From the NCBI GenBank assembly GCA_963737635.1, contig CAVTTL010000001.1:1728001-1792000 (forward strand): DNA of 64,000 nucleotides, given 5' to 3'. This document shows positions 28,861 through 44,335 of this stretch, piece after piece. The notes below the pieces were generated by a model. That model had not been told where the DNA came from. It ran no database searches and worked only from the letters and a program-made list of their open reading frames with translations. The number at the start of each line of letters is the position of its first letter. Position 1 is the first letter of the stretch. The translations under genes were made by a program, and so were the position numbers. Source of the DNA: an uncultured Methanoregulaceae archaeon. GTDB lineage: Archaea; Halobacteriota; Methanomicrobia; Methanomicrobiales; Methanospirillaceae.

Positions 28861-28908
28861 AATCCAGAAGGGTGTAAGATAAAAAAATCTCTTCATTTTC
28901 CGGTTTCT

Positions 28909-29451
28909 TTAAGTAAAAACCGCTGTGAAAATGCTGTTGATACCTAAGTGAATGATAATACATACTGAGAGGATCATACCTGATACGACAAGCGCCATTG
29001 CGGTATTGCCGTATTTAATTTCACGGAGTACATCTACCGTGGGACTGACGCGGGCGATGATATACATTACCAGATAAATGGATCCAATAGCAAGAAAGAT
29101 ACTCAGCCCGAGCTCAATAATTATGGATACTATCTGAAGGGCTCCTACAATCGTGAACATTCCTCCAGCCACGATGCTATTCAGACCTGTGAGGATTGCT
29201 TGAATACCGGCATATGCCGGAATGGAAATACCGATAAAAATTGAAGCAATAAAGAAACCAACAGCTATGTTTCCCTTTTTAATTTCTCCTGGGGCATCGA
29301 ACCCTCCGGTAAGGTGGTTGAAGGTAAATAACCCGGCATAAAGCGCGATCACAGAAAAAATGATAGCAACGATCATCTGGATTAATCCTGTAAATACATA
29401 AGCCACCAACGCCATTTTTACTGATCCTTGAGTTTTTATTACCCGGTACAA
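28909..29451 (-). CDS. DUF350 domain membrane protein (tandem duplicated domain)
   Basis: Two EIKxGNxA(V/M) motifs each flanked by TM helices. Confidence 0.75.
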   Translation of the reverse strand: MYRVIKTQGSVKMALVAYVFTGLIQMIVAIIFSVIALYAGLFTFNHLTGGFDAPGEIKKGNIAVGFFIASIFIGISIPAYAGIQAILTGLNSIVAGGMFTIVGALQIVSIIIELGLSIFLAIGSIYLVMYIIARVSPTVDVLREIKYGNTAMALVVSGMILSVCIIIHLGINSIFTAVFT

Positions 29452-29735
29452 CTACTTACACAGATTTAATAAACGTATCCTGCACCAGTACCGATCCGTC
29501 ATTAATTCTTCTTCGTATCCCGCTTGACCTTATGATCTCAGGGTAAATCTGCCAGCACGTTATAACAACTGATCAAAGACCGGCAACTGGATCTTTCATC
29601 GTTTGTTTCAAGTTTTGTTTTTGGGAAATAATCCTTTAAGTGTTCTCATCGAAGTCAACTCAGGTCGGAATGCTCTGACGAGCCCTTTCTAGGGTTTTCC
29701 GGGGCAATACTCATTTCAATGGAGGAGGATTTTCT

Positions 29736-29879
29736 ATGGTAAATGTGTCTGCAGAAGGGCAGATCTACCGATGCGAGATCTGCGGGAATGTGGTAATCGT
29801 GCGGGAAGCTGGCGGTGGAGAACTGGTCTGCCACGGTCAGCCCATGAAACTGGAAAGTGAAGGTACGGACAAATCCTGA
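29736..29879 (+). CDS. Desulforedoxin / desulfoferrodoxin N-terminal Fe-binding domain protein (47 aa, not in ORF track)
   Basis: MVNVSAEGQIYRCEICGNVVIVREAGGGELVCHGQPMKL...; GGAGGAGG RBS. Confidence 0.9.
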   Translation: MVNVSAEGQIYRCEICGNVVIVREAGGGELVCHGQPMKLESEGTDKS

Positions 29880-29925
29880 ATAAATAGAGAGAAGAAATTA
29901 AGGTCTTTATTTGATCAACCGGTGA

Positions 29926-30963
29926 TTATAGCGCAGGTTTTGTTTTGAGGGCCGCAACCAGCAGGTTGACACCAGCTTCAATATCCCCGATGTCCAGCAC
30001 TTCAACCGGCGAATGGATGTATCTCGTGGGCGGGCTGATAGTAGTGCTTGGGACTCCACCGCGGGACAGATGAATGGAGGTCGCATCGGTTGTTCCCCCG
30101 GTTCCGACTTCGAACTGCACCGGGATTGCATGGGACTCAGCGGTCTCTTTGAGCCACTGGACAACCTTGCGGTTTGCGATAAGTCCTCTCCCGCTGCTGT
30201 CCACGATCGTAATGACCGGCCCTTTTCCCATCTCGACTGCCGCATCTTTCATATCAATGCCCGGGTGATCTCCGGGAATGGTAACATCTGTCGCAATAGC
30301 CCAATCGGGATCAATAGTATAGGCACTGGTTTTTGCGCCTTTGAGCCCGACTTCTTCCTGAACGGTAAAGACTGCGTAGACTGTAAATGGGGATTTCACC
30401 TTCTGCATGGTTTTGACCAGCATCGCAACACCGGCGCGGTTATCAAATGCCTTCCCGGTAACGTGATTGTTCGCGAGCTCAGTGAACTCCCGGTCGATCG
30501 TTACGGGTGTCCCGATCTCGATGCCGAGTTCCGCGACATCATCCTTGTTTTTTGCGCCGACATCGATGAACATATCATCTGTTTTCACTCCTTTTTTCCG
30601 CTCTTCCTCATCCATCATGTGAGGAGGCTTACCCCCGATGACTCCTATCCGGTCGCCGTTCGACCCGTGGACAATGACGCGCTGGTTATAGAGAGTCGGC
30701 GCATACCATCCACCTAGCGTGATAAACCGAAGAAATCCTTTGTCATCGATATACTTGACCATAAGTCCGATCTCATCCATATGGGCTGCAAGCATTACCT
30801 TTGCCTTATTCCCGTGCTTGACGGCGATAAGGTTACCCATAGTATCCTCGGTGATCTCGTCGACGTGTCCTTTAAGTTCCTTCTTAATAAGGGCAAATAC
30901 GCTGCCTTCACTGCCCGATACCCCGTGGGCATTGGACAGTTTCCGTAAGAGTTCCTTTACCAT
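29926..30963 (-). CDS. M42 family (TET) aminopeptidase
   Basis: AAHMDEIG, GKAFDNR, TVQEEVG, GTTD, RYIHSPVE. Confidence 0.93.
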   Translation of the reverse strand: MVKELLRKLSNAHGVSGSEGSVFALIKKELKGHVDEITEDTMGNLIAVKHGNKAKVMLAAHMDEIGLMVKYIDDKGFLRFITLGGWYAPTLYNQRVIVHGSNGDRIGVIGGKPPHMMDEEERKKGVKTDDMFIDVGAKNKDDVAELGIEIGTPVTIDREFTELANNHVTGKAFDNRAGVAMLVKTMQKVKSPFTVYAVFTVQEEVGLKGAKTSAYTIDPDWAIATDVTIPGDHPGIDMKDAAVEMGKGPVITIVDSSGRGLIANRKVVQWLKETAESHAIPVQFEVGTGGTTDATSIHLSRGGVPSTTISPPTRYIHSPVEVLDIGDIEAGVNLLVAALKTKPAL

Positions 30964-30964
30964 A

Positions 30965-32095
30965 TTACTCTCCTGTTGCCTTTTTGATCCTATCAAGGGC
31001 TCGCATGAGGTTTTCCCGTGAAGCGGCATAACTCAGCCGGGCATAGTCTGGCGCGTTTGCACCAAATGCTGACCCCGGGGTGAGAATAACGCCGTTGTCG
31101 ATAATTTTCTGTACAAGCGCCGGCTTCATCGGTACAAACGCGTAAAACGCGCCTTCGGGGACAGGAAAAGAGAAACCGATGTCAGATAGGCCTTTGCAAA
31201 GCAGGTCGCGGCGCGCACGGTACTCTTCCCTCATCTGGCGGACCGGTATCTGATCCCCAGTGTAGGCTGCGAGCGCCGCATATTGGGAGATTGATGTAGC
31301 ACACGCTTGGCAGTACTGGTGCACCTTGAGGCACTGGCCGACAATTTCGGGAGATGCGGCAAGATATCCCAGCCGCCAGCCGGTCATCGCGTAGGTCTTG
31401 CTTGCCGCATTAATCGTAACGACATTGTCCCCAAACAGTGCTGCACTCCGGTGTTTTTTGCCGTAGATGAAATGCTCGTAAACTTCATCGCTGACAACCG
31501 TAACACCGGCATCATGTGCATACTCGACCAAGGCCTTGATCGACTCCCCACTTTCCACGGCACCCGTCGGATTTGACGGCGAATTTAGGACAAACACGCG
31601 GGCGCCATCCATCAGTGCCTGAGCCCGCTCGAGATCGATATGGAATGTTTCATCCAGCGAGACACCTACAGGCCTACCGCCGGCAAGTGTTGCAAGCGCC
31701 GCATAGGAAACAAAGCCAGGGTCGGCACAGAGTACCACGTCCCCTTCACTCACCAGTGCCTGCATGACGATGTGGAGCGCCTCGCTCGCACCGGCAGTGA
31801 CAAGAACCTGATCCGGCGTATAATGCACTTCGTTTTCTTTTCTGAATTTGGTACTGATCGCATCCCTGAGTTCGGGAATTCCCGTGTTCACCGTGTACCC
31901 GGTCTTTCCTTCACGGATTGCGGCAATGGCAGCATCCTTGATGTGTTGCGGTGTATCAAAATCCGGCTGGCCAAGGCCGAGATTTATCGAGTTCGGTCCC
32001 GCCGCTTCAAAGATCCTCCGTATCCCGGAAATTTCTATACCTTTTACCCGGGGCGAGAAATGTTCTTCCATCTTGTCCTCCACAATGAGTATCAC
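30965..32095 (-). CDS. Class I/II PLP-dependent aminotransferase (AspC-like)
   Basis: G.PDF.TP, NSPSNPTG, DEVY, SKTYAMTGWRLGY. Confidence 0.93.
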   Translation of the reverse strand: MILIVEDKMEEHFSPRVKGIEISGIRRIFEAAGPNSINLGLGQPDFDTPQHIKDAAIAAIREGKTGYTVNTGIPELRDAISTKFRKENEVHYTPDQVLVTAGASEALHIVMQALVSEGDVVLCADPGFVSYAALATLAGGRPVGVSLDETFHIDLERAQALMDGARVFVLNSPSNPTGAVESGESIKALVEYAHDAGVTVVSDEVYEHFIYGKKHRSAALFGDNVVTINAASKTYAMTGWRLGYLAASPEIVGQCLKVHQYCQACATSISQYAALAAYTGDQIPVRQMREEYRARRDLLCKGLSDIGFSFPVPEGAFYAFVPMKPALVQKIIDNGVILTPGSAFGANAPDYARLSYAASRENLMRALDRIKKATGE

Positions 32096-32691
32096 TCAAT
32101 ATTTGCGTGCCGGTTCTTGAGTGCTGATTCATCGGTCTTTGTTATCTCCATAAGTCGGGAGATCGCGGCGTCGGAGAAGATCATCGAGGCCGTCTCAAAG
32201 AGTGTCCCAAGCGGCGCAAACGACTTATGATCGCCCAGCATCTGCCGGATTTCAAACTCTGCCGCATCATCACGCACATCATCGCGCTGGTTTTCGATTA
32301 TCACCCTGCAGTCGGCAATTTTTCCAATCCTCGAATCGGCGTTCGAAGTGATAAGACAGATGTGTGCCCCAATCTCTTTTCCTGTCTCGGCGATATCAGC
32401 AATGGTTTTGGTCCTTCCGGACCCCGAAAAAACCACGATGACATCTCCTTTCTGGAGTGCCGGCGTGATCGTCTCGCCAACGACATACGACTGAAGGCCA
32501 AGGTGCATCAGGCGCATGGCAAAACCCTTCGCCACTAGACCCGATCGGCCTGCGCCCATCACATAAATGCGTCGTGCATTTAATATCTCGGCGAGGAACG
32601 CATCTACGTCCGCGTCGGAAATTGAAGTCGCTATTGCCCGAATCTTTGATGCCATTAGCTGCATCATTTCCTGAACCCTGTGATTTTCCAT
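32092..32691 (-). CDS. hxlB: 6-phospho-3-hexuloisomerase
   Basis: GAGRSGL..K.FAMRLMHLG, VGET.TP, SGSG.T, APLGTLFE, HANIE. Confidence 0.93.
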   Translation of the reverse strand: MENHRVQEMMQLMASKIRAIATSISDADVDAFLAEILNARRIYVMGAGRSGLVAKGFAMRLMHLGLQSYVVGETITPALQKGDVIVVFSGSGRTKTIADIAETGKEIGAHICLITSNADSRIGKIADCRVIIENQRDDVRDDAAEFEIRQMLGDHKSFAPLGTLFETASMIFSDAAISRLMEITKTDESALKNRHANIE

Positions 32692-32810
32692 CCTGCTCGC
32701 AAGAATGGTGTTATCCCATAGTAGATGAGAATTTCGTACCGGCCGTAAAGCTGGTATCGGCTACAGGAACGAGGAAGAGAAACATCCTCACAAAACGCAT
32801 TTGTCGTGTT

Positions 32811-34322
32811 CTAAGCCCCTGTTACCTTGTAATGGGTGATATTACCAATGGGCACGAGCTTCCCGTTCTCTAGCACAGAAACGGCACCATGACCGCCGCA
32901 GATCCGGCAGCGTTTCTGCTGCGTACTAAGACGCTGATCGGTCTCAGCAGCAAGTTCAAGAAGTTCTTTTCGTTCCTTGCGCGCGAGATTGCTGTCCACA
33001 TTAACTGATGTGACCAGAAAATCGGCAAGGGAATTATAGCTTGCCCGTTCCAGCGTAAGGCTGGAAAAATTGATGACAGCATCGGCGGTGAAGAGCAGCC
33101 CTTCAGATCCTGAATACAGATAGATCTGTCCGTTTGTATGGCCTCCCAGTCCTTCGAGCACTTCAAGAATAAGATCGCCGATGGTGACTGTCCCAATGAC
33201 GGGAAAGATACTGCGTGTTGCCGTTCCGGCCCTCGGTAGGCAGGTAATCTCTCTGGGGGGTCTGAACTGTGAGAAGAGATTGATCATCTTAGTGTAAAAT
33301 GCTTCAAGAACCGAATGCTCGTTCCGCGAACCATATGCACGGTTGTTCGTTTTTATAATCTCCCGCGTGCCGGTATGCATGAGTGCACTTCCCGGGAAAA
33401 AACCTCCTCCCCCGCAGTGATCGGCATCTGCATGGGAGATAACTATCTGGGTAAACTGGTCTTCTTCACCGAGACCGAAGTGGGAAAACATCGCCATAAC
33501 ATCGTCGTGGTAAATGCCATACCCGGTATCGATCATCAGGGTTTCTTTGCCAGCAGTAAGGACATAGATACTGCCGCCGCAGGGCAGCTGAAAACAGAAG
33601 AGGTCGACCTGCGGGGTGACTGCAATTTTCTGAATATCCGCATAGAAATTCCTTCCTGATGTAGCACGCAGTGTCCGACCGGTCTGGAGCACACTATCGA
33701 AGACCTGTTGGGGATTATTCCCCCGGTTCATCAGTTCCTGCGCGATATGATTGGTATCTGCAAGAAACGAAAGAAGGAAAGTATTTTCGGATTCACCGAT
33801 AAGGTCCCGGATTTCCTGGGCAAACCGTACATAGAAAATGGTGTTGTCAAGGTTTTTACCAGTAGTATCGTATTCGAGAATCTCGAGACGGTACCGGGAT
33901 TTGAGTTGATCCAGAAGCTGTTCAACTGATGCCGGGTCTTCCAGATTCAGGCTGACGGTCAGCCGGTCAGGATATCGCCCGGTATCATCAAAATCGACAA
34001 AACCGATATTTGCCCCGGATTCTGTCGTATATTTCAGGAACCGGCTGAGAGATCCCAGCGTATGGGGCAGATGCACATAGAATTTAAGGAAACTTGAAGG
34101 TTTTAACGAGGTCTGGAGGTACCCGATTGCAGCAAGATCCCGGGTAATCCTGACATAATCATCTGCAGTCGCAGTCACTTCGTAAAAGACCGTGCAGGGA
34201 TCGATCCTCCGATCATATTGGATACGATTGATATTGCCATCATATTTCGTGATAACACCGGCTGCCCTCCCAAGAGAACCGGGTTCATCAGGCATGTGGG
34301 CAATAAAACCAAATTTTTTCAC
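32811..34322 (-). CDS. ACT-domain-fused metallo-beta-lactamase fold protein
   Basis: Two ACT-like segments (PDEPGSL, PHTLGSL), then IDTG, SHADADH.GG, GGHT.G, FTAD, GGHG. Confidence 0.8.
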   Translation of the reverse strand: MKKFGFIAHMPDEPGSLGRAAGVITKYDGNINRIQYDRRIDPCTVFYEVTATADDYVRITRDLAAIGYLQTSLKPSSFLKFYVHLPHTLGSLSRFLKYTTESGANIGFVDFDDTGRYPDRLTVSLNLEDPASVEQLLDQLKSRYRLEILEYDTTGKNLDNTIFYVRFAQEIRDLIGESENTFLLSFLADTNHIAQELMNRGNNPQQVFDSVLQTGRTLRATSGRNFYADIQKIAVTPQVDLFCFQLPCGGSIYVLTAGKETLMIDTGYGIYHDDVMAMFSHFGLGEEDQFTQIVISHADADHCGGGGFFPGSALMHTGTREIIKTNNRAYGSRNEHSVLEAFYTKMINLFSQFRPPREITCLPRAGTATRSIFPVIGTVTIGDLILEVLEGLGGHTNGQIYLYSGSEGLLFTADAVINFSSLTLERASYNSLADFLVTSVNVDSNLARKERKELLELAAETDQRLSTQQKRCRICGGHGAVSVLENGKLVPIGNITHYKVTGA

Positions 34323-34427
34323 AAGTACGGCTCCATTGCAGGACTAAAATAGGTACACCTTTTCGATATAGATTACGGTAAAAAAGGTACTACCGGTCAT
34401 TGACCGGCATCCGGGCGGTGCCGGATT

Positions 34428-35534
34428 TTAGTCTCTTTTCTTTGTGAGGGTAAAAATCAGGGCTGCTCCTATGCAGCCTCCGATTGCTGCCAGCGGAGAA
34501 AGCGCAAGACCGAACGGTGCCTTCATCATCTCGGGTGAGATCTCCGTCGGTTTGTTTTCTGATACGACAATGTCCATCGATACGGTCAGGTAACCGGGAG
34601 ATTTGATCTCAACCAGATGTGTCCCGGATGCAACGCTGTTCAGCGTTACCGGTGAAGTTCCTACCAGTACTGAATCGAGATAAACGGATGCGCCTGCCGG
34701 GGTTGATGAAACAACGAGTGTTCCCGAATTCGGGGAGGTGGCAGGTGTCACCTGCGGATTGCCTGACGCCCCGGTCATATTTGTCTGAGGAAGTGCGGCG
34801 GACGATGTATTGGTGGTTCCCAGTGGGGTCAGATCTGCATTGGAGGCAACGACCGTTAGTGTTTCTTTCAGGTTATTTGTCAATGAGGGGCTGCTGAAAA
34901 CAATGGTATAGGTACCTGGCTGCATATCAACATGGAACCCGTACTGGAAGTATCCCCCGGCACTCACCGGTGAGTTGAACGTATGCACCTTGTTCCCAGA
35001 AGCATCCAGCACATCGATCTCAATTGCATCTGCTGAAGTTTGCACTGTTCCCACCAGCTGAATATAATCATTGAGCACCGCCGGATTTGGGGATATTGTT
35101 GCATAAAATTCGGGTTGTCTCAGGGATATCGAAGCGGAAGAATTGATAAGCGGGTTACTGAGATCAAATGCCCTGAATGTATACACACCCGTATTCAGGT
35201 TTTCAGTCCCCTGCGCCAGGGAAGAATCCCAGAGAAATGTCCATGTTCCCGATGGATCCGTATACACGGGGTCCCCGGTTCCTGCTGTCCCCGTCAGGGT
35301 GGAGGGGGGAACCCCCGCAGAGGGGAGGCCTGGGCCGGTAACGGTGATTACAGTTGTATTACCTACGGTATTCTTCCCGTCAAATATGACACTGTCACCA
35401 ATGTAATGCTGCATGGCTCCTCGGTAAGAGATAGATACGGTTCCATCCTGGCCATGTACTGGTACGACGCATACCGCAACAAGGATCAAAAGAAGAAGTC
35501 CGTAAAATGATTCCGGAATCTTTTTAGAGCACAT
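34428..35534 (-). CDS. PEGA domain cell-surface protein
   Basis: Signal peptide; GTLVVSSTPAGASVYLD..GTSP; C-terminal TM plus KKR. Confidence 0.8.
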   Translation of the reverse strand: MCSKKIPESFYGLLLLILVAVCVVPVHGQDGTVSISYRGAMQHYIGDSVIFDGKNTVGNTTVITVTGPGLPSAGVPPSTLTGTAGTGDPVYTDPSGTWTFLWDSSLAQGTENLNTGVYTFRAFDLSNPLINSSASISLRQPEFYATISPNPAVLNDYIQLVGTVQTSADAIEIDVLDASGNKVHTFNSPVSAGGYFQYGFHVDMQPGTYTIVFSSPSLTNNLKETLTVVASNADLTPLGTTNTSSAALPQTNMTGASGNPQVTPATSPNSGTLVVSSTPAGASVYLDSVLVGTSPVTLNSVASGTHLVEIKSPGYLTVSMDIVVSENKPTEISPEMMKAPFGLALSPLAAIGGCIGAALIFTLTKKRD

Positions 35535-35706
35535 TTTTTTTCCTCACCTTTAAGAGAATATATTCTTGAGAGAATAAACGTTGTTGTTCTTTTTCTCACT
35601 TTTCACCCTGAATACCTCCCAAAGATCATCCAATTCGGTCAGGAAATGTCCCGATAACGAAACTATATGTATAGTTGCGCAGTAACCCATAACCAGAGGG
35701 ATAATC

Positions 35707-37738
35707 GTGACTGACGTCATCCAGGCAAAGATAACCGGTAATGAGCAGCTTAAAAATAAAATATCCCAAATATCGCGCGAATTTTCCTATGACGAGACCG
35801 CATATCATCTTCCGATCTCGTTTGCACTGACAGGAATTGCGGTACATGACAGGAACGCTGCTGCGGAAGTTTTTGCAAAAACCGGTAACAACCCGCTGGT
35901 TGCGTCTGAGTGCCTGCTTGCGGAAGCCACAGCTGCCGCAGGAAAGGAGCCTTCCCCTTACACGGGATTTATCAGTGACACGGTGATCCGGAAGCTTGGC
36001 TACTCCCTGGTGGATGGGAGCATTCTTGGCCTAGCCCTTATCGTTGGTACACCGAATAGTTCGGGGAGTGCAGCCGCAATCTGCCGTGAGCTTCAGGAAA
36101 AATACATGCTCACGTTCCTTGCCGGGGGCGTTATCCCGACCCTCTCTTCATCCGGCGTAAAACTTGGCCTGGATTACCGGCTCATCCCTCTGGGGTCCCA
36201 ACCTCTCCACAGTGTCTATTTTGTGGATATCATTGCACGGGTCGCAATGATGTTTGGAGGTGTCTCTCCGGGGGATACCGGACGCCTCCTTGCCTATGCA
36301 GCGGAACGTGCAAAAGCAATGGTAGTAGTCTTCCCCGGGCTATCTGATGAAGAAGTGGCCTTTGTGGACGGCATGCGTGTCCTTGGATTTCCGATCCTCA
36401 CGCTTGGCGGATATGAAGGCGGTGACTGGACACCGGCAACACCAGAAAATGTCGTGTGTACCGGGATGGAACTGAAGGGTATCCGGGTCACAGTGACTGC
36501 GATTCCTATTCCGATGGGCTGTTCTCCTGCGTTCGAAGGAAAAAGCATCAGGAAAGAGGAGATGCAGATCGAGTTTGGCGGGGGCCGATCACCCGCCTTT
36601 GAACTTTTAAGGATGAAAAATCCCGGAGAGATCGAGGATGGCAAGGTATCGGTTGTCGGGCCGGAGATCGATTCCATGAAGGAAGGCGGCGCATATCCTC
36701 TTGGTATTATTATCGATGTGGCGGGAAAGTCGATGAAGAAGGATTATGAGCCGGTACTCGAACGACGGATCCACAATTTTATCAATTATGGTGAAGGATC
36801 GTGGCACGTTGCCCAAAGGGATCTTATCTGGGTGCGGATATCCAAGGAAGCATTTGCAAAAGGGGTGAAAATCGAGCACCTGGGAAAACTCCTTGCAGGC
36901 AAGTTCCGGATGGATTTCCCCCAGCTTCTTGACGCGGTAGCCGTCACGCTCATCACAGACGAGGATAAAGTGCTTGCCGGAAAAAAAGAAGCGGAAAAAA
37001 TTTACGCCGAACGTGATGCCCGCATCAAAGGGATGCGTGACAACGAAGTTGGAACCTATTATTCCTGCACACTCTGTCAGACATTTGCCCCCAATCATGT
37101 CTGTATTATTACACCTGAGCGGCCGGCCCTCTGCGGGGCGATCAGACTGGCTTGACGGGAAGATTGCGTATGAAATGTCCCCCGCCGGCGCAAACCAACC
37201 CGTGGAGAAAGGGGCACTAATCAATGCCCAGAATGGCGAGTTCGAAGGGGTTAACCGGTTCGTCAAAAAAGCCAGCCACGGCGAAATCGAAAGGTGTTCG
37301 CTTTACAGCGTAATGGAATTCCCGATGACCTGCTGCGGGTGCTTCGAAGCCATAGCGCTGATGCTTCCTGAAGTCAACGGAATCATGGTGGTTAACCGGG
37401 AATACAAGGGCATGACACCGTCCGGCATGACATTCTCGACCCTTGCCGGAACCATTGGCGGGGGAGCCCAGACCCCGGGCTTTGCTGGCATCTCGAAGAA
37501 TTATATCCTTTCGGACCGGTTCCTCCAGGGCGAAGGGGGCATCGAACGCCTTGTCTGGATGCCTTCGCAATTAAAAGAGGAACTTAAACCCCGGCTCATC
37601 TCCCTTATGGCGGCAAAGGGACATCCCGATCTCTTTGATAAAATTGCGGATGAAACCACGGCTGAAACCATTGAGGATCTTACAGCTTTTCTCGAGCGTG
37701 TTGGTCACCCGGCGCTTACGATGAAACCCCTGATGTGA
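35707..37738 (+). CDS. acsB: Acetyl-CoA synthase, bacterial-type with N-terminal domain (frameshift at ~37146)
   Basis: A-cluster ligands CTLCQTFAPNHVC...LCGA and CGC; N-domain motifs TAY.LP, YTGFI.D, MMFGGV.PG, PAFEG.SIRK; about 676 aa when repaired. Confidence 0.92.
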
Positions 37739-37746
37739 GGTGTGAG

Positions 37747-38694
37747 ATGATACCTGAACCGAATTTTGGCTGGACGGGCACGGTAGGAGAAGTCATCCTT
37801 GGTGCAACCTGTTCTGATGGAGGGACGAGGTCACGCTCATACCGGATTGGCAGGGGAACCACACTCCCGTTCATGGAAAAAGAAAAAACATCGCCCTCGC
37901 CTCTCGTCACTTTCGATATTTGCGACGACTCCCGGTACTGGTCTCCTATAGTCAACGATTTCTGCGGAGATCTTGTCCACGATCCAAGTGCATGGGCGAA
38001 GATGGCAGAAACCTCCTACGAGGCAGATCTTATCCGTCTCTGCCTGACAAGTACCAAGCAGCGGGATTTCTCCAATATCGCCGCACTTGGGAAAACTACG
38101 GAATCTGTTCTGTCATCTACTACCCTGCCACTTATCATTGAAGGAAGCAACGAACCAAAGATTGACAGTGAAGTATTCCAGAAATGTGGCGAGGCTGGTC
38201 AGGGTGAACGCCTGCTTCTCGGGACCGCAGAAGCGGGACGGTACCGCAGTATCGCCGCTGCAGCCTTGGCGTACAACCACGCGATCATTGCCCAATCCCC
38301 CATCGATATCAACCTTGCAAAGCAGCTTAATATTCTTCTCAAGGAGATCGGGGTACCACGCGATCACATCGTTATCGATCCCTACACCGGTGCGCTTGGC
38401 TATGGTTTTGAGTATTCTTATTCTGCAATGGAGCGGATCCGGTTTTCTGCGCTCAAGGGCGACAGTGATCTCGCGATGCCGATGATCTGCGCTCCCTCGG
38501 ATTCTCTCACCATAAAGGAGGTACGTGAAGCAGATGTCGACATGAGGAATGCCATGGCTGTAGAATGGGAATTTGTGACCAGCCTTGCGGCCGCCATCGC
38601 CGGCGCTGAGATTGTCTGTGTCCGTCATCCAAGCACAGTAAAGCGACTCAAAACAGCTTTTGCGGATCTTAGTGCACGGCAGGGAGGCTCATAG
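37747..38694 (+). CDS. acsD: Corrinoid iron-sulfur protein small subunit (AcsD/CdhD)
   Basis: EV.LGAT..DGGTR, SPIDINLAKQLN, DP.TGALGYG.EYSYS.MERIR..AL.GD. Confidence 0.92.
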   Translation: MIPEPNFGWTGTVGEVILGATCSDGGTRSRSYRIGRGTTLPFMEKEKTSPSPLVTFDICDDSRYWSPIVNDFCGDLVHDPSAWAKMAETSYEADLIRLCLTSTKQRDFSNIAALGKTTESVLSSTTLPLIIEGSNEPKIDSEVFQKCGEAGQGERLLLGTAEAGRYRSIAAAALAYNHAIIAQSPIDINLAKQLNILLKEIGVPRDHIVIDPYTGALGYGFEYSYSAMERIRFSALKGDSDLAMPMICAPSDSLTIKEVREADVDMRNAMAVEWEFVTSLAAAIAGAEIVCVRHPSTVKRLKTAFADLSARQGGS

Positions 38695-38696
38695 GA

Positions 38697-40029
38697 ATGC
38701 CCCTCAAAGCCCTTGACATCTATAAACTCCTGCCAAAGAAGAACTGCAAGGAATGCGGTGATCCTACGTGCCTGACCTTTGCCATGAAACTTGCTGCCGG
38801 GAAAGCAGACCTAGATCTCTGCCCCTATCTTGATGAGAATGCAAAGTCGGTTCTTGGGGCTTCAACCCGGCCACCGATAAAACTCGTAAAACTCGGGGTT
38901 GGTGAACGTTCATTTGCCGTCGGTGAGGAGTTCGTGCTCTACCGCCACGACAAGACATTCTATCATCCACCGGGCATCATGTTTGTACTTTCCGATACGC
39001 AAACGGACGAGGAGATAGCGGCAGTGACCGCACGTGTACGTGATGAAACGCTGACACGGGTCGGGGCCGACCTGAAATTCAACGGGACAGCGATTATCAA
39101 TACAAGCGGGACGGTTGAAGCGTATGCAAGGGCGGTCACTGCAGTCGAAAAAACCGCGGGTCTCCCCGAAGTTCTGATCTCAGAGAACCCGGCAGCTCTT
39201 TCTGCTGCCCTCGTGCAGTGCGGGAGTTACCGGCCCCTGATCTGTGCAGCAACACCGGAAAATTACCGGGAGATGTGTGCGCTTGCCAAGCAGTACGGGT
39301 GCAGGCTTGTTGTCCGGGCTCAAACTCTCGATGGGCTCGCGGCGCTCACTAAGGATTGCGCTACCGAGGGGGTTTCCAATGTTGTGCTTGACCTTGCCCC
39401 GCAGACGTTGAGCGACTTTCTTTACCGATCGACGGAAATACGTCAGCTTGCCATTACCCGAGCGGCCCCGGATCTGGGTATCCGGTGTACCTGGATGCGA
39501 CGGCTTTTGTTGATGAAGATGCGGCAATTGCTCTGGGGATTGTCAAATATGCTTCTGTGATTGTAACTTCCCCGCTCTCTCCACCATCAGCAAAGGCTGC
39601 GCTCACCCTCCGCCAGAATATCTATACTGACCCCCAGAAACCCATCCAGATGAATCCCGGGCTCTACCGGGTCGTACTCCGGGAAAAGATGCACCGGTGC
39701 TTATGACGGTAAATTTTTCCCTCACCTACTTTACTCTTCAGGGATATCTGGAATCAACCCGTATTCCCTGCTTCATGTTAATTGTCGACACCGAGGGACT
39801 TTCGGTGCTAACCTCCGTCGCAGCAGGCAAGCTTAATGAGACGCTAGTGAGGGATGCGATAAAAAAATTCGGTGTTGAAAACGAAGTATCACACCGGAAA
39901 CTGATTATCCCCGGATATGCATCCCCCCTCTCGGGAAGAATCGAAGAGGCCACCGGCTGGAAAGTGCTAGTCGGGCCCCGGGATGCCGCCGAAATTGGCG
40001 AATTTCTCGTTCAGGAATGGAAACCCTAA
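38697..40029 (+). CDS. acsC: Corrinoid iron-sulfur protein large subunit (AcsC/CdhE; frameshifts at ~39480 and ~39676)
   Basis: IYKLLPK.NCKECG.PTC..FAM...CP [4Fe-4S] motif, RQNIYTDPQKP, NFSLTYF, GLSVLT..AAGK, VGPRDA. Confidence 0.92.
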
Positions 40030-41952
40030 ATGCGTACTGTTACTTTCTTTCCCAGCTACCGGAAGATCGATGCTCCCCGCGGGACGACTATCCTTGACGC
40101 CGCCCAGCGTGCCGGGATTAACATGAACGTCGTCTGCGGCGGCGTGGGCAAATGTGGAAAATGTATTGTTTATATCCAATCCGGTAAGACAGAATTCGAC
40201 CGGCAAAAGTTCGGGCGGTTCTTTACCGATGATGAACTGAAAAAGGGTGCCTGCCTTGCTTGCGTGACGACGATCCAGGGAGATCTTCAGGTCTTTATTC
40301 CTGAAAGCACGTTAATCCAGGAGCAAAAAATCCTCGTTGAAGGGGCAGATACGGAGATTGAATTCAACCCGTCCGTAAAAAAATACTATGTCGAACTTCA
40401 GCCGCCGACCCTTGCCGATCCATCCCCGGACCTTTCACGCCTGCTCTGGGGCATCCAGAAAAAAGGTGGGCCTGTTGCAGAGAAAATGTATGCACCGCTT
40501 GAGGTGATGCGGGAGATCCCTGCACTGCTCCGGCACAGTGACTGGAAAGTGACTGGAACAATTGCCCTTGTTCCCGGGGGATACCGGCTTATCGATCTCC
40601 AGGAAAATGATACCTCGCAAAGGCTCTACGGGGCAGCAGTTGATCTTGGCTCCACTACGGTCGTTGCGTACCTCTGGAATCTTATCACGGGAAAAGTGAC
40701 TGCGGTTGCTTCTAACTACAACCGGCAGATCAGCTGTGGGGAAGACATACTCGCCCGGGTCAATTATGCCCAGAAAAACGGGATCGCAAAACTCCAGACA
40801 CTTGCTGTAGAGAGCATTAACTCAGCGCTGACCTCGGCGTCCAACTCCGCCGGGATTGACCGGGAAGATATTTACGAAGTCGTGGTTGCAGGAAACACGG
40901 TAATGACCCACATGCTGCTTGGTATCGACCCGGCTTATATCATCAAGGAACCCTATGTCCCGGTGGTGCAACGGGCACTTTCGGTCGCTGCCGCAAGGAT
41001 TGGGATCACTTGTAACGACAATTGCGGGCTCTTTGCTTTCCCGGCAGTCAGTGATTTTATTGGCGGTGATATCATTGCCGACATTCTTGCTTGTGGCATG
41101 GGCGAAAAGGATGAGATCTCCCTCCTTGTCGATATTGGTACTAATTTCGAAGTTGTTCTTGGTAACCGGGAATGGATGTTTTCATGTGCAGGGGCAGCGG
41201 GTCCGGCGCTTGAAGGTGGCGAGGTACTCTTCGGTATGCGTGCAAATCCCGGTGCTATCGAGAAGATAACTATCGACCCAACAACGCTTGAGCCGGTATT
41301 TTCCACCATCAATGGGATCAAACCCCGGGGCATTACCGGTTCTGGGCTGATTGATATTCTTGCCGAACTGCTCTCTACCGGAGTCATTGACCGTACCGGG
41401 CGGATTAACACTGAGTGCAACAATCCCCGGATCCGCGTCGGCGCACATTTCCCGGAGTACGTCATTGCGTGGGCACGCGAGACCGATATCGGCAAGGATA
41501 TTGTGATTACGGAAAATGACATCAAGAACCTCATTATGAGCAAGGCTTCCATCCATGCTGCCTGCGTGACGCTCATGAAAGAGGCAGCAGTTACACGGTT
41601 CGACATTGCCACCATTTACTTCGCCGGGGCATTTGGTAACTACATCAACAAAAAGAACGCGACGATTGTAGGCCTGATCCCAGAGATCGATTTCGAACGG
41701 ATAAAGAACATCGGAAATGGAGCCGTAGTAGGTGCAAATCTTGCGCTCATCAATCGCAGACAGAGAAAACTACTCGATGGCATCGCAGGCAGGATCGCTT
41801 ATATTGAGCTCAACGCAGAACCCTCTTTCATGGATGAGTACACCTCTAGCGCGTTTCTCCCGCATACCGATCTCTCACTTTTCCCCCGGGTCCAGGCCCT
41901 TCTCGATTCCCTGCGCGAGAAAAAAGGAGGGTATCCCGAATGTCAAAGATGA
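40030..41952 (+). CDS. acsV: ASKHA/DUF4445 reductive activator of corrinoid proteins (RACo/AcsV)
   Basis: N-terminal [2Fe-2S] CGG.GKCGKC...LAC; DLGSTT, GNTVM, DIGTN.E, AGPA.EG, GSG, AGAFG. Confidence 0.9.
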   Translation: MRTVTFFPSYRKIDAPRGTTILDAAQRAGINMNVVCGGVGKCGKCIVYIQSGKTEFDRQKFGRFFTDDELKKGACLACVTTIQGDLQVFIPESTLIQEQKILVEGADTEIEFNPSVKKYYVELQPPTLADPSPDLSRLLWGIQKKGGPVAEKMYAPLEVMREIPALLRHSDWKVTGTIALVPGGYRLIDLQENDTSQRLYGAAVDLGSTTVVAYLWNLITGKVTAVASNYNRQISCGEDILARVNYAQKNGIAKLQTLAVESINSALTSASNSAGIDREDIYEVVVAGNTVMTHMLLGIDPAYIIKEPYVPVVQRALSVAAARIGITCNDNCGLFAFPAVSDFIGGDIIADILACGMGEKDEISLLVDIGTNFEVVLGNREWMFSCAGAAGPALEGGEVLFGMRANPGAIEKITIDPTTLEPVFSTINGIKPRGITGSGLIDILAELLSTGVIDRTGRINTECNNPRIRVGAHFPEYVIAWARETDIGKDIVITENDIKNLIMSKASIHAACVTLMKEAAVTRFDIATIYFAGAFGNYINKKNATIVGLIPEIDFERIKNIGNGAVVGANLALINRRQRKLLDGIAGRIAYIELNAEPSFMDEYTSSAFLPHTDLSLFPRVQALLDSLREKKGGYPECQR

Positions 41953-42979
41953 TCCCATCCCCGTATTCACGTGCGACTGGTATAGGCGCCCTTCCCCACA
42001 CCGACCCTGTACTCGCGTGCGACGATGTCCTCGATGTGTTCCCTGAATTCCCTTATGCACCCACGCTCCCCGACCGTGGACTTCTGGAAAGCATCGTTTT
42101 CAACGATTCAGCGCAGCTCCCGGGGCGGCTCATCCGTGATGACAGGTTACTCTACGATAGCACCCGGGATAATACCTCTGCGATGGAACAGGTGTACCTG
42201 GATTTTGTCGAGGAAAATTTTTCACCCTATAACCTTGATAAGGAACACGCATCTGCATTTGCAGAGATGATGACCCGTCATTTTCCTAAAGCAAAGATCC
42301 TCAAGTGCCAGGTCACTGGACCGGTTACCTTCGGTATGCAGGTTGTGGATGCGGACAAGAGGCCCATCTATTACGACTCTCAACTTGCTGATGTCCTTTC
42401 GAAAATGATTGCACTCAAGGCCCGGTGGTGCGAAAACGAGATGCAGATACAGACTGGAATCAAAGAGACCCTTGTAGTTCTCAACGAACCCTATTTTGCT
42501 TCGCTGGGATCCTCAGTCGTGCCCCTTGACCGGGGAGCTGTGAAGGCGGGCTGGCAGGATATTGCATCCCTCGTCCGGGGCGGCCTTGGCGTGCACTGTT
42601 GTTCGAACACGGACTGGGAATTTGTTATCAGTCTCGACCCTTCGGTCATCTCCCTTGACGCCTATGCAACAGCGACAGAATTCCTTCTCTACGCCGATGC
42701 GATTGCGGCTTACCTAGAACGGGGCGGGGTCATAGCTTGGGGAATTGTCCCTGCAGAATACAAGCTCTTTGCAGCAGAGACGGTTGACTCGCTCTACGCA
42801 CGGTACCGTGCGATACGAACCCAGCTGACAAAACGTATCCCGGAAGATCTTTTCGATGCCCAGTCGCTCATTACCCCCAGCTGCGGATCCGGTTTGCCGA
42901 CCGGAACGGCGCTGGTGAGATCCAGAGTGCCGCCGCGGAGATTTCCCGGAGGATCCGGGCAGAGGCAGATATTTCCTGA
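41940..42979 (+). CDS. Folate-independent (core-MetE/MesB-like) methionine synthase (frameshift at ~42887)
   Basis: TGIGALPHTDP..AC, K.QVTGPVTFG, NEP, Zn ligands GVHCC, SLD, ITPSCG; single catalytic barrel; repaired C-terminus ends at TGA 42979. Confidence 0.75.
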
Positions 42980-43002
42980 ACGTGAGAATGTTACTTGTTA
43001 CT

Positions 43003-43769
43003 ATGACACCGCGCCCGTTTACCATTGCCCTTTCCGGAAAAGGAGGGACCGGCAAAACTACCATAAGTTCCCTCCTTGTCCGGGCTTTTATCGATGCAGG
43101 TGAAAGCCCGGTTCTCGCCGTTGATGCTGACCCTAATGCAAACTTCCACGAGGCCCTTGGTGTAGAAGTGAAAGAGACGCTGGGCAGCATGCGTGAAGAG
43201 GCCTTTACCAGAAATATTCCGCCTGGCATGAACCGGCACGATTACGTACGGTACCGTTCCGGCAGGCCCTTGTGGAATCTAATGGCTTTGATCTGGTCGC
43301 GATGGGCCGGCCCGAAGGCACCGGCTGTTACTGTTTTGCAAACGATCTCCTTACAGAATGCATGCAGCAACTCGAGCGTGAATACCGTTTTCTTGTGATC
43401 GATACAGAGGCCGGCATGGAACACATCAGCCGGGGCACAATCGGAAAACCTGATGTGTTATTGATCGTAAGCGATCCCGGTGCGAGGGGACTACGGACGA
43501 TTGCGCGGATACGGGAAATCGCTATCCAGCTCGGGTTTGAGCCGTCACGAATCCATATCGTGTTCAACCGGTATAAATCTGGCGCAGCACCGGTGGATAT
43601 AGGAAACGAACTCCCGATCGCAGTCATCCCGGAAGACCCTGCAGTTGAGGCAGCTGATCTTGCGGCAACTCCGGTATCACAGATCCCGGAGTCCAGCCCG
43701 GCCCGCCGTGAAATCCGTGCCCTCGCAGAAAAAATGATGAAAATGGCGCATGATCGGCTGGAACAATAA
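43003..43769 (+). CDS. cooC: CooC/AcsF-type nickel-insertion ATPase (frameshift at ~43257)
   Basis: GKGGTGKTT, DADPN, MGRPEG.GCYC, DTEAGMEH..RG. Confidence 0.88.
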
Positions 43770-43792
43770 AAAATGTATAAGATTCCGTTGGG

Positions 43793-44335
43793 TCAGAGGA
43801 AAACCGCAACGGCGATGACTGTTGTCCATAACCCGTTCTTGTCGCCCTGTGCTGACTGGCAGACATGTTTTGTCCGGATGATCTTGCCGCTTGCCTTATA
43901 GGTTTGTTCACGTTCCTGCCAGGCAGCATTTGCGTCAAATTCAATACCTAGTGTTGTTGCAAGCATTGTTGCTGCAAGATCCTCGGCATATTCCCCGGTC
44001 CTTTCCTGGGTCTCCCCGTATGCATGATGCTCGGAGAGATACCCATATTCTTCTACGTCTTTTGGAAGCGCGAGCCCGACTGCAGCAGAGACCAGCCGGT
44101 TGGGTTCGTTAGTCTCGTTCCTTGCCATCACGCAGAACGTGATGCCACCTGACTGGAGTTCCCTGAGGCCGGTACGGGACGGGATCTGTTTGCATTTCGG
44201 AGGGAAAATGCTTGACACGTACACAAGGTTGCATTTTTCGATACCGGCTTTACGTAACGCCAGTTCGAACGATGCAAGACGATCTTTATGGATTCCCACC
44301 CCCTTGGTGAAAAAGATCCTCGATGGAACAAACAT
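43793..44335 (-). CDS. pdaD: Pyruvoyl-dependent arginine decarboxylase
   Basis: SFELALR.AGI..CNLV.VSSI.PP (Ser-Ser self-cleavage site), GYLSEHH. Confidence 0.9.

What the first reader, a model, noticed from the sequence alone, without database searches (positions are those of the whole stretch)
35707..36480. ACS N-terminal domain appears to have a naturally plugged CO tunnel and trimmed CODH interface
Seen: the segment YFVDIIARVAMMFGG...SDEEVAFVDGMRVLGFP aligns without gaps to my recalled Moorella thermoacetica ACS segment HAANYALRAGMMFGG...DMVKTAAAFGAIFTGFP. This places Ile (36232-36234) at A222 and Phe (36361-36363) at A265. The alcove residue I146 appears to be Tyr (36001-36003), A110 appears to be Ser, and the N-terminal helical region is about 50 aa shorter. 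Established: engineered A222L, A265M and A110C substitutions block CO channelling in the Moorella enzyme. Inference: the tunnel was lost once CODH coupling became unnecessary, which independently supports a monofunctional, acetyl-CoA-cleaving ACS. The reference sequence is from memory and must be verified.
Basis: partly seen in the sequence, partly recalled or inferred. Interest (0 to 1): 0.75.

Follow-up and report, generated by a model that had tools for sequence, protein, structure and literature searches.

The report
Methanogen acetyl-CoA synthase with altered CO path
A methane-making archaeon carries an acetyl-CoA synthase whose built-in carbon monoxide pocket and channel are lined with unusually bulky residues, a trait shared by its whole lineage and not tied to loss of the partner enzyme that makes CO.

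Summary
The residue assignments are correct. Against a Moorella-numbered reference, the window protein has Ser at A110, Tyr at I146, Ile at A222 and Phe at A265. Its N-terminal helical part is shorter.

The host is a Methanoregula-like methanogen, not a CODH-free bacterium. The genome also holds a full archaeal cdhABCDE cluster.

The gene looks frameshifted at 37146. Contigs from four public runs show this is an assembly error, as are four other single-base breaks in the cluster.

Tyr146 and Ile/Leu/Val222 occur in 73 of 73 Methanomicrobiales genomes that carry this AcsB. 63 of those 73 have a CooS-type or CdhA-type CODH. In three genomes cooS follows the cluster.

Ten CODH-less Chloroflexota AcsBs all keep Ala222 and Ile/Val146. 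Positions 110 and 265 vary freely in acsA-adjacent AcsBs. Bulky 222 also occurs beside a CODH gene in two other lineages.

So a narrowed channel and a partly filled CO alcove are plausible but unproven. No tunnel calculation was possible. "Lost because CODH coupling became unnecessary" is not supported.

The cluster (acsB-acsD-acsC-acsV-mesB-like-cooC) fits a stand-alone ACS/corrinoid module. Verdict: a new variant of a known enzyme, of moderate interest.

The parts
35707..36501 (+). N-terminal (A1) domain of acsB, residues 1-265; holds all the sites in question
   Evidence: NF040764 positions 10-508 matched by the first ORF. AF2 model has pLDDT above 90 over most of it, and the isolated-A1 chains of ACS match at TMt 0.74-0.81.
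35905..35907 (+). Ser67 = Moorella A110, the residue before the invariant Glu
   Evidence: Within the lineage this site is variable: C22, A19, S16, V6, T3, W3, G3, L1 of 73.
35989..36018 (+). Gating helix alpha-A: R95 (R142), G98 (G145), Tyr99 (I146), L101 (M148), V102 (V149), G104 (W151)
   Evidence: Predicted helix 91-102 with lower pLDDT of about 75. Tyr is found in 73 of 73 genomes and 120 of 120 metagenome homologs.
36232..36255 (+). Helix alpha-B: Ile176 (A222) to Phe183 (F229)
   Evidence: Predicted helix 166-183. Position 222 is I30/L29/V14 of 73; F229 is kept in 73 of 73.
36361..36363 (+). Phe219 = Moorella A265
   Evidence: In the lineage: F40, L15, V9, C4, A1, S1, I1, M1, one without data, of 73.
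36502..37738 (+). Middle and C-terminal (A-cluster) domains of acsB. Cys454/457/466/476 at 37066-37134, Phe460 (F512) at 37084-37086. Cys-Gly-Cys lies inside the CCGCFE motif that starts at 37331, read in the second frame.
   Evidence: The intact homolog P0003 scores 906.8 bits on NF040764, cut-off 800.
37146..37146 (+). One spurious base that splits acsB into ORFs 35707-37155 and 36974-37738
   Evidence: Absent in L037 and L086 DNA. 'Left out' in contigs of runs X1 and X2, the runs that cover the place.
37735..38694 (+). acsD (small corrinoid Fe-S protein subunit)
   Evidence: NF003376, 371.9 bits, cut-off 280.
38697..40029 (+). acsC (large corrinoid Fe-S protein subunit), read in three frames in the window because two bases are missing near 39475 and 39673-39676
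   Evidence: The intact homolog L162:5216-6550 scores 529.7 bits on NF003195.
40030..41952 (+). acsV / RACo-type reductive activase of the corrinoid protein
   Evidence: Pfam RACo_C_ter, Raco_middle, RACo_linker, Fer2.
41940..43000 (+). mesB-like core methionine synthase candidate. The end is approximate, because one base is missing near 42884-42886.
   Evidence: No Pfam or NCBIfam hit. Atlas neighbour cluster in which 26% of members carry PF01717, score 0.96. Homologs of 32-34% identity and 179-197 bits in 5 of 5 CODH-less Chloroflexota genomes. MesB family as described in PMC7857596.
42919..43769 (+). cooC/MinD-type P-loop ATPase (nickel-insertion type), in two frames because a base is missing at 43255

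Best explanation
The stretch encodes the A1 domain of an intact acetyl-CoA synthase (AcsB type) with a complete set of A-cluster ligands, in a Methanoregula-like methanogen.

It belongs to a lineage found across the Methanomicrobiales. In all six loci inspected it lies in the cluster acsB-acsD-acsC-acsV-mesB-like-cooC.

This lineage has fixed changes along the gas path of A1:
- Tyr replaces the alcove residue Ile146 on the gating helix, directly over the proximal nickel.
- Ile/Leu/Val replaces Ala222 on helix alpha-B, two turns before alcove Phe229.
- Mostly Phe/Leu/Val replaces Ala265.
- 16-23 residues are missing from the N-terminal helical part.

Inferred: the Moorella-type channel through A1 is narrowed or closed and the CO alcove is partly filled. 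The enzyme would then exchange CO with the solvent, or by another route. It would work as a stand-alone ACS/corrinoid-protein module linking acetyl-CoA to the methyl group on the corrinoid protein, from which the MesB-like enzyme may draw methyl groups for methionine.

Shown: the residues, their conservation, the gene order and the intactness of the gene.

Not shown: tunnel closure, the direction of catalysis, and the absence of a CODH partner.

The pattern is a trait of the lineage. It is not a response to CODH loss.
For: - Mapping to Moorella numbering.
- Tyr146, L148, V149, F229 and I/L/V222 in 73 of 73 genomes, and Tyr146 with I/V222 in 120 of 120 metagenome proteins.
- In 79 AcsBs of other taxa with data at 222, the residue is A (69) or S (7), apart from the three Methanomicrobiales loci. 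Position 146 is I/V/L, once F, apart from the same three.
[quoted passage not shown] - PDB titles name A225L and A268M variants of C. hydrogenoformans CODH/ACS. These equal Moorella 222 and 265 by the +3 offset seen for I149/I146 and F515/F512.
- The P63-E111 segment is 32 aa, against 48-56 aa in 72 other loci.
- The lineage is monophyletic on a long stem.
- The gene is intact in reads-derived contigs, and 72 of 72 relatives have no stop in the matched stretch.
- Gene order is conserved in the window, L037, L083, L086, G192 and G033.
- 10 of 73 genomes have no CODH found, among them G033, a single contig at 99% completeness.
Against: - No coordinates were available, so no cavity calculation was made. 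Neighbouring residues could compensate.
- The gas route differs between solved complexes (Moorella, C. autoethanogenum, Methanosarcina). A blocked Moorella route therefore does not exclude another route.
- 63 of 73 genomes have a CODH, and cooS lies about 2 kb behind the cluster in G094, G184 and G192.
- Position 265 is Ser, Ala or Cys in some members, and position 110 is Ala in 19 of 73. Only 146 and 222 are constant.
- C. hydrogenoformans ACS still captures CO well when its tunnel is blocked (passage), so closure need not change function much.
Confidence: 0.5

Rival explanations
1. CODH coupling became unnecessary, the tunnel and the CODH interface then decayed, and the enzyme is a monofunctional ACS that cleaves acetyl-CoA.
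For: - No acsA within 10 kb in the window, L037, L083 or L086.
- A mesB-like gene lies in the cluster.
- In D. mccartyi the methionine methyl group comes from acetate (passage in PMC7857596).
- 10 of 73 genomes have no CODH found.
- Residue 222 mimics the engineered A225L change.
Against: - The window genome has cdhABCDE.
- 63 of 73 carriers have a CODH, and the residues are the same in all four CODH categories.
- cooS follows the cluster in three genomes.
- 10 of 10 CODH-less Chloroflexota AcsBs keep A222, I/V146 and a full-length P63-E111 segment.
- AcsBs from 9 further genomes (6 labelled Omnitrophota, 1 Planctomycetales, 2 unnamed or other) with no CooS-type match keep A222. These are MAGs of unknown completeness.
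Confidence: 0.15
2. The AcsB still docks on a CODH (CooS-type or archaeal CdhA) in another geometry. The substitutions would then reflect a re-routed gas path, as in the C. autoethanogenum complex, not a loss.
For: - Three different channel routes exist in solved CODH/ACS complexes.
- cooS and a second cooC lie behind the cluster in G192.
- The A1-AcsB is found more often with CdhA (32 of 73) than without it (13 of 128). Relatedness of the genomes is not corrected for.
- The A1-AcsB P0150, with Leu222 and Ile265, lies directly upstream of an archaeal-type cdhA in L184 and L185. L188, with Val222, lies beside an acsA-like gene.
Against: - 10 carriers have no CODH found, four of them at 99% completeness or in a single contig.
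- In most carriers the CODH gene is far from the cluster or on another contig.
- The N-terminal helical part of A1, the CODH-binding domain in acetogens, has a deletion unique to this lineage.
Confidence: 0.2
3. The substitutions are structural drift compensated by neighbouring residues, with no net effect on gas access.
For: - Positions 110 and 265 vary widely in acsA-adjacent AcsBs: 265 is A15, T14, N11, Q5, M2, V1, L1, and 110 is E25, A9, D5, F5, C3, T1, V1, of 50.
- V/I/L/M at 222 appear in several other divergent AcsB representatives of unknown context.
Against: - Tyr146 is invariant in 193 sequences of the lineage and absent from the 75 sequences outside the lineage that have data at 146. 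This points to selection on Tyr.
- The residue sits on Nip in the solved structures.
Confidence: 0.13
4. The gene is a pseudogene, because it is frameshifted in the window.
For: Two overlapping ORFs in different frames.
Against: - The extra base is absent from contigs of runs X1 and X2.
- The four other single-base breaks of the cluster are likewise corrected in every contig that covers them, from up to four runs of three studies.
- Identity to P0003 is 91% on both sides of the break, with no other stop.
Confidence: 0.02

Closest known systems
ACS subunit of the class-1 CODH/ACS of Moorella thermoacetica and Carboxydothermus hydrogenoformans (PDB 1OAO, 6X5K, 7ZKJ)
   Same: - Three-domain ACS with all A-cluster cysteines.
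- Alcove residues G145, V149, F229 and F512, plus R142, are kept.
- The AF2 model superposes on closed-state chains at TMq 0.86-0.88.
   Different: - Tyr for I146, Ile for A222, Phe for A265, Leu for the plug residue M148, Gly for W151.
- About 46 aa fewer before residue 130.
- No adjacent acsA.
Engineered tunnel variants: A225L and A268M of C. hydrogenoformans ACS (PDB 8CMW, 8CJB); A110C, A222L and A265M of Moorella ACS (names recalled, Tan et al. 2005)
   Same: A bulkier side chain at the same two alanine positions.
   Different: - The changes here are natural and fixed across a lineage, combined with Tyr146 and a deletion.
- Position 110 is not consistently bulky.
- The Moorella mutant names come from recall. 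Only the paper's reference-list entry was seen, and searches found no held text.
CODH-less AcsB with MesB, as described for Dehalococcoides mccartyi (PMC7857596)
   Same: ACS and corrinoid-protein genes without acsA, plus a MesB-type core methionine synthase.
   Different: - The 10 CODH-less Chloroflexota AcsBs sampled keep A222 and I/V146.
- In the five CODH-less Chloroflexota genomes searched, the mesB-like gene is not in the acs cluster (distance of about 144 kb or more, or on the other strand); here it is.
- The host here is a methanogen with cdhABCDE and a second PF01717 gene.
Archaeal ACDS (CdhA/CdhC) of Methanosarcina (PDB 9C0S, 9C0T)
   Same: Archaeal host. The same genome holds such a complex.
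   Different: CdhC lacks A1, and CdhA's Rossmann fold 2 supplies the channel and alcove. The protein here has its own A1. The PNAS 2024 passages say that A1 is missing in all methanogens, which these genomes contradict.
Class-2 CODH/ACS of Clostridium autoethanogenum (PDB 6YTT)
   Same: An A1-bearing ACS. It gives the best single structural match, 6ytt_D at TMq 0.90.
   Different: It keeps Ala at the 110, 222 and 265 equivalents and Val at 146. It docks on CODH at another site with another channel.

Membership tests
AcsB-type acetyl-CoA synthase (NCBIfam NF040764 / PRK09529) | Full-length match above the curated cut-off | tested here: met
   The window fragments score 568.1 and 324.3 bits, each below the 800 cut-off only because of the assembly break. 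The intact homolog P0003 is 91% identical over the aligned parts of both window frames and scores 906.8 bits.
AcsB-type acetyl-CoA synthase (NCBIfam NF040764 / PRK09529) | A-cluster ligands: four Cys of the [4Fe-4S] cube plus Cys-Gly-Cys for the two nickels | tested here: met
   Cys454/457/466/476 in the first frame and the CCGCFE motif in the second. They align with Moorella C595 and C597 in relatives.
AcsB-type acetyl-CoA synthase (NCBIfam NF040764 / PRK09529) | N-terminal A1 domain with a Rossmann-like fold | tested here: met
   AF2 mean pLDDT 87.1. The isolated A1 chains 6yua_A, 9g03_D and 9fnc_D match at TMt 0.74-0.81 and rmsd 3.1-3.2.
AcsB-type acetyl-CoA synthase (NCBIfam NF040764 / PRK09529) | Five conserved hydrophobic alcove residues (G145, I146, V149, F229, F512; JBC 2024) | tested here: not met
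   Four of the five are kept. I146 is Tyr.
AcsB-type acetyl-CoA synthase (NCBIfam NF040764 / PRK09529) | Corrinoid Fe-S protein genes and their activase alongside | tested here: met
   acsD, acsC and acsV lie directly downstream.
Tunnel-coupled bifunctional CODH/ACS (Moorella/Carboxydothermus class 1) | acsA (CODH) gene beside acsB | tested here: not met
   No acsA or cdhA hit in the flanks of L037, L083 or L086, nor in the window's own 48-kb stretch 28000-48000 by synteny. The only Prismane-family gene in the genome is cdhA, about 237 kb away.
Tunnel-coupled bifunctional CODH/ACS (Moorella/Carboxydothermus class 1) | Small residue (Ala/Ser) at position 222 lining the channel | tested here: not met
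   Ile176 here. A or S in 49 of 49 acsA-adjacent AcsBs with data.
Tunnel-coupled bifunctional CODH/ACS (Moorella/Carboxydothermus class 1) | Continuous hydrophobic channel from the C-cluster to the A-cluster | not testable with these tools
CODH-independent ACS of organisms without any CODH (Dehalococcoides type) | No CODH gene in the genome | tested here: not met
   cdhA scores 1124.9 bits on TIGR00314 in G000. 63 of 73 carriers in the order have a CODH.
MesB core methionine synthase (for the neighbour gene 41940-43000) | At least 173 bits to DET0516 and the zinc ligands HC(E/D)C (Price et al. 2021) | tested here: inconclusive
   179-197 bits to unnamed homologs in 5 CODH-less Chloroflexota genomes, and an Atlas neighbour with PF01717 in 26% of members. 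DET0516 itself was not at hand, the zinc ligands were not checked, and there is no Pfam hit.

The most novel reading that the evidence does not exclude
Methanomicrobiales possess their own class of A1-bearing acetyl-CoA synthase. In it, an invariant tyrosine on the gating helix occupies the CO alcove over the proximal nickel, and the A1 channel is closed.

Such an enzyme would be sealed against channelled CO. It would handle the carbonyl group differently: the tyrosine could press on or hydrogen-bond the Ni-acetyl or Ni-CO species and so favour C-C cleavage. It would serve to shuttle methyl groups between acetyl-CoA and the corrinoid protein for MesB-dependent methionine synthesis, alongside the classical archaeal ACDS.
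Probability: 0.2. Interest if true: 0.7.

Novelty: new variant of a known kind. Interest (0 to 1): 0.5.

Why it matters
The CO alcove and tunnel of ACS are now regarded as part of its active site (JBC 2024, Nat Catal 2025 passages). So far they have been probed only by engineered variants.

A natural, widespread lineage with Tyr at the nickel-facing alcove position and a bulky residue at 222 offers a ready-made test of several questions:
- What the alcove and channel contribute to CO affinity.
- What they contribute to CO inhibition.
- What they contribute to the direction of the reaction.

The lineage also corrects a general statement in recent structural papers that methanogens lack the A1 domain. 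It raises the question of why about a third of the sampled Methanomicrobiales genomes (73 of 201) keep this enzyme. 32 of those 73 have it beside the archaeal ACDS, and 31 have it as the only ACS-type gene found together with a CooS-type CODH.

Tried and rejected
- **PDB chain ids** are not accepted by get_proteins. I used a Neomoorella locus as the numbering proxy instead.
- **The search for related loci** with a 23-sequence alignment had no conserved stretch. A 9-sequence alignment worked.
- **The genome search** with 79 loci was over the limit of 50. I searched the 29 loci without acsA in their flanks. The other 51 were not searched genome-wide.
The FastTree result is used and its deep forks are unresolved.
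- **Pseudogene reading:** rejected after read laying.
- **GATC link of the five errors:** 3 of 5 lie within 6 bases of GATC. GATC is dense here at 8.4 per kb, so this is only suggestive.
- **Complex prediction** was not run. Solved CODH/ACS complexes would let an A1-CODH pair pass by likeness, and a failure would say nothing.
- **Expression:** no RNA holder listed.
- **The search of earlier findings** returned nothing for this genome.
- **Papers not held:** Doukov 2008 and Adam 2018. Lemaire & Wagner 2021 and Tan 2005 were seen only as references.
- **Literature searches:** searches for A222L/A265M/A110C found no ACS paper. Searches for Methanomicrobiales or Methanoregula with AcsB found none on this enzyme.
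- **Names of other bulky-222 AcsB representatives** were mostly not on record. Of 10 looked up, only 2 carried organism names.
Full report
**What is at the coordinates**

Pfam and NCBIfam identify it as the first two thirds of an AcsB-type acetyl-CoA synthase, NF040764 positions 10-508. The overlapping ORF 36974-37738, in another frame, supplies positions 506-705.

Downstream lie these genes:
- acsD
- acsC, which appears broken
- a RACo/AcsV activase
- a 387-aa ORF with no family hit
- a fragment of a CooC/MinD-type ATPase

The best homologs are intact 676-aa proteins that their sources name Methanoregula sp.; the top one, P0003, is 89% identical over residues 1-265. So the host is a hydrogenotrophic-type methanogen of the Methanomicrobiales. 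It is not a Dehalococcoides-like bacterium.

**The frameshift is an assembly error**

Compared with P0003 and with the DNA of two Methanoregula MAG loci, the window has five single-base breaks:
- one extra base at 37146 in acsB
- one missing base near 39475 in acsC
- one missing base near 39673-39676 in acsC
- one missing base near 42884-42886 in the unnamed gene
- one missing base at 43255 in cooC

I laid contigs of four public soil-metagenome runs on 35600-43900. X1 may be the source sample. X2 and X3 come from a second study and X4 from a third.

At each of the five places, every contig that covers it lacks the extra base or carries the missing G. The covering runs are X1 and X2 for 37146; X1, X2 and X4 for 39475; X1-X4 for 39673 and 42884; and X1-X3 for 43255.

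The genes are therefore intact in the organism. Intact relatives served as stand-ins.

**Checking the observation**

PDB sequences could not be pulled by id. I therefore used the AcsB of Neomoorella stamsii (L026:9992-12178). It aligns 1-729 to Moorella chain 1oao_C 1-729 without a gap, so it shares its numbering.

HMMER against the PDB, a MAFFT alignment of 83 AcsBs and a codon check agree:

| Window residue | Coordinates | Moorella residue |
|---|---|---|
| Ser67 | 35905-35907 | A110 |
| Gly98-Tyr99 | 35998-36003 | G145-I146 |
| Leu101 | 36007-36009 | M148 |
| Val102 | 36010-36012 | V149 |
| Gly104 | 36016-36018 | W151 |
| Ile176 | 36232-36234 | A222 |
| Phe183 | 36253-36255 | F229 |
| Phe219 | 36361-36363 | A265 |

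The N-terminus is about 46 residues shorter than in Moorella. Measured between conserved anchors, the stretch P63-E111 is 32 residues in the window, P0003, L037, L083 and L086. It is 48-56 residues in 72 other loci, of which 48 are acsA-adjacent and 24 are not.

An AF2 model of the 479 in-frame residues has mean pLDDT 87.1. It shows helix 91-102 (the gating helix with Tyr99, pLDDT about 75), helix 166-183 (with Ile176 and Phe183) and helix 214-226 (with Phe219).

The model matches closed-state ACS chains at TMq 0.86-0.90. Isolated A1 chains match at TMt 0.74-0.81.

**What these positions mean, from papers**

I read passages, not whole papers.
- JBC 2024 (PMC11321310) lists the alcove residues as F229, I146, F512, V149 and G145. 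It calls them highly conserved in bacteria that use the pathway.
- The Biochemistry 2022 review (PMC9782325) says Ile146 packs against the proximal nickel and enforces its tetrahedral CO-bound geometry.
- Nat Catal 2025 (PMC12289521) uses C. hydrogenoformans numbering, which is Moorella +3. [quoted passage not shown] It says the gating helix opens and closes the tunnel. It also says ACS outcompetes haemoglobin for CO even when the tunnel is blocked.
- PDB titles name A225L and A268M variants of the C. hydrogenoformans complex. These are the equivalents of Moorella A222 and A265. The chains show Leu and Met at the aligned places.
- The Moorella mutant names A110C, A222L and A265M are recalled. 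I saw only the reference to Tan et al. 2005, and found no held text with these names.

**How unusual are the residues?**

I collected 80 named loci from species-representative genomes, the best 80 matches to a Carboxydothermus-like query. Of these, 50 AcsBs have an acsA within the flank. Among those 50:

| Position | Residues found |
|---|---|
| 222 | A 43, S 6, one without data |
| 146 | I 38, V 10, F 1, one without data |
| 265 | A 15, T 14, N 11, Q 5, M 2, V 1, L 1, one without data |
| 110 | E 25, A 9, D 5, F 5, C 3, T 1, V 1, one without data |

So 110 and 265 are not informative. Positions 146 and 222 are.

In this sample the only loci with Tyr146 and bulky 222 are the three Methanomicrobiales ones: L037 Ile, L083 Leu and L086 Val.

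C. autoethanogenum ACS keeps Ala at the 110, 222 and 265 equivalents and Val at 146.

A wider alignment of cluster representatives shows V/I/L/M at 222 in eleven other divergent AcsBs of mostly unknown origin. Tyr at 146 occurs in two of them.

**Survey of the order**

I searched 201 Methanomicrobiales genomes, G000 included.
- The A1 domain is found in 73 of 201. That is 60 of 144 high-quality genomes and 22 of 40 genera.
- In the window's own genus it is in all 15 relatives plus G000.
- All matches are without stops.

The 73 carriers split by CODH content as follows:

| CODH content | Genomes |
|---|---|
| CooS-type and CdhA | 9 |
| CooS-type only | 31 |
| CdhA only | 23 |
| neither | 10 |

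The ten with neither include G033 (one contig, 99% complete) and G139 and G183 (99%). G132 is only 56% complete.

Of the 128 genomes without the A1 domain, 63 have a CooS-type CODH and 13 have CdhA.

I fetched all 72 other A1 stretches. Six were first read in the wrong frame and then corrected. The outcome for the 73:
- 73 of 73 have Tyr146, Leu148, Val149, Gly151, Phe229 and Arg142.
- Position 222 is Ile 30, Leu 29, Val 14.
- Position 265 is F 40, L 15, V 9, C 4, A 1, S 1, I 1, M 1, with one without data.
- Position 110 is C 22, A 19, S 16, V 6, T 3, W 3, G 3, L 1.

The pattern is the same in all four CODH categories.

The 120 listed metagenome homologs all have Tyr146. Position 222 is I 85 and V 35. 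Position 265 is L 60, F 54, I 5 and M 1.

In G094, G184 and G192 a cooS lies about 2 kb behind the cluster on the same strand. In G192 the order is acsB, acsD, acsC, acsV, mesB-like, cooC, a 368-aa ORF, cooS and a second cooC.

In G033, where no CODH was found, the cluster ends after cooC.

**An independent test of "CODH loss gives a plugged tunnel"**

I sampled 251 Chloroflexota genomes. About 34 have a full-length AcsB. Ten of these show no TIGR01702 match. They are 1.4-1.9 Mb in size, and for seven of them the match lies on a contig of 1.36-1.85 Mb, about the whole genome.

Their A1 domains have Ala222 in 10 of 10, Ile or Val at 146 in 10 of 10, and Phe229 in 10 of 10. Position 265 is N, L, V, T or A. 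The P63-E111 segment is 54-55 residues, and 48 in one. This is just like ten CODH-positive relatives.

Among the 29 loci of the first sample without acsA in the flank, 9 genomes outside the Methanomicrobiales show no CooS-type match, yet their AcsBs keep Ala222. Six of these are labelled Omnitrophota. They are MAGs of unknown completeness.

The converse also holds. The A1-AcsB P0150 has Leu146, Leu222 and Ile265, and it lies directly upstream of an archaeal-type cdhA (62% identical to that of G000) in metagenome loci L184 and L185. L188, with Val222, lies beside an acsA-like gene.

Bulky 222 is therefore rare next to a CODH gene, but it exists. CODH loss does not produce it.

**The genome context**

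The window genome holds no CooS-type gene. It does hold a complete archaeal cdhA-cdhB-cdhC-cdhD-cdhE cluster about 237 kb away.

The unnamed gene behind acsV has no Pfam or NCBIfam hit. Three lines point to MesB:
- Its nearest Atlas clusters are unnamed proteins of about 346 aa. One neighbour cluster has PF01717 in 26% of its members, at score 0.96.
- It has homologs of 32-34% identity (179-197 bits) in 5 of 5 CODH-less Chloroflexota genomes.
- Price et al. 2021 (passages) describe MesB as a core methionine synthase proposed to take methyl groups from the corrinoid Fe-S protein. [quoted passage not shown]

G000 also has a separate PF01717 gene.

The gene order acsB-acsD-acsC-acsV-mesB-like-cooC is kept in all six loci inspected: the window, L037, L083, L086, G192 and G033.

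**Phylogeny**

A FastTree of 98 AcsBs puts the Methanomicrobiales proteins in one group with local support 100, on a long stem of 0.74 changes per site. Their neighbours are unresolved. They are the P0150/P0166 group with archaeal CdhC, and the Clostridia-type group. No donor or direction of transfer can be named.

**Reading**

- **Shown:** the residues, their fixation across a lineage, the deletion, the intact gene and the gene order.
- **Inferred:** a bulky aliphatic residue on helix alpha-B two turns before F229, together with a tyrosine on the gating helix over the nickel, narrows or closes the Moorella-type channel and partly fills the alcove.
- **Not shown:** closure itself, the direction of catalysis, and whether a CODH docks.

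The passages of PNAS 2024 that say A1 is missing in all methanogens do not hold for these genomes. They also do not hold for the Thermoplasmata and Methanomassiliicoccales loci found here.

In the held library I found no paper on this enzyme in Methanomicrobiales. Adam et al. 2018, which may treat it, is not held.

Noticed in passing
window 37146, 39475, 39673-39676, 42884-42886, 43255: Five single-base consensus errors within 6.1 kb (37146-43255): one extra base and four missing G. They break acsB, acsC (twice), the mesB-like gene and cooC. All five are corrected in public contigs.
   Followed up: yes
G000:C1:1992001-2010000 (L007): A complete archaeal cdhA-cdhB-cdhC-cdhD-cdhE cluster. It is followed by an AcsV-like gene that appears split (404 aa and 162 aa) and a cdhE that matches only positions 1-383 of 450. 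These may be the same kind of assembly error.
   Followed up: no
window 41940-43000: A gene without any Pfam or NCBIfam hit that looks like a MesB-type core methionine synthase. It is conserved directly behind acsV in all six loci inspected.
   Followed up: partly
L184 and L185, 10001-14495: An A1-bearing ACS (P0150, 700 aa) lies directly upstream of an archaeal-type cdhA, with a corrinoid-protein gene further on. This arrangement mixes 'bacterial' and 'archaeal' parts.
   Followed up: partly
L021, L031, L034, L066 (Thermoplasmata), L032, L042: Stop-to-stop frames of 1379-1412 aa cover both the acsA and acsB matches. This suggests CODH-ACS fusion proteins.
   Followed up: no
L030, L033, L048, L071, L080, L087 (mostly Omnitrophota): An AcsB group with Tyr instead of alcove Phe229 and Leu at 146. 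No acsA lies in the flanks, and no CooS-type match was found in these genomes.
   Followed up: partly
L160 (G192:C1:577001-593000) 10694-14830: Behind the acs cluster lie a 368-aa ORF without a clear family, then cooS, then a second cooC-type ATPase. cooS sits at the same distance and on the same strand in G094 and G184.
   Followed up: partly
window 46621-57726, minus strand: Two very long ORFs of 2251 aa and 1444 aa, intact in this assembly. They were not examined.
   Followed up: no
whole window: GATC occurs 540 times in 64 kb, or 8.4 per kb. That is about twice the roughly 3.9 per kb expected for a 4-base word.
   Followed up: no
alignment A1: P0225, P0248: Two divergent AcsB-like representatives lack the Cys-Gly-Cys nickel site. 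They have Phe or Tyr at 146 and Leu at 222, and may be non-catalytic paralogs.
   Followed up: no
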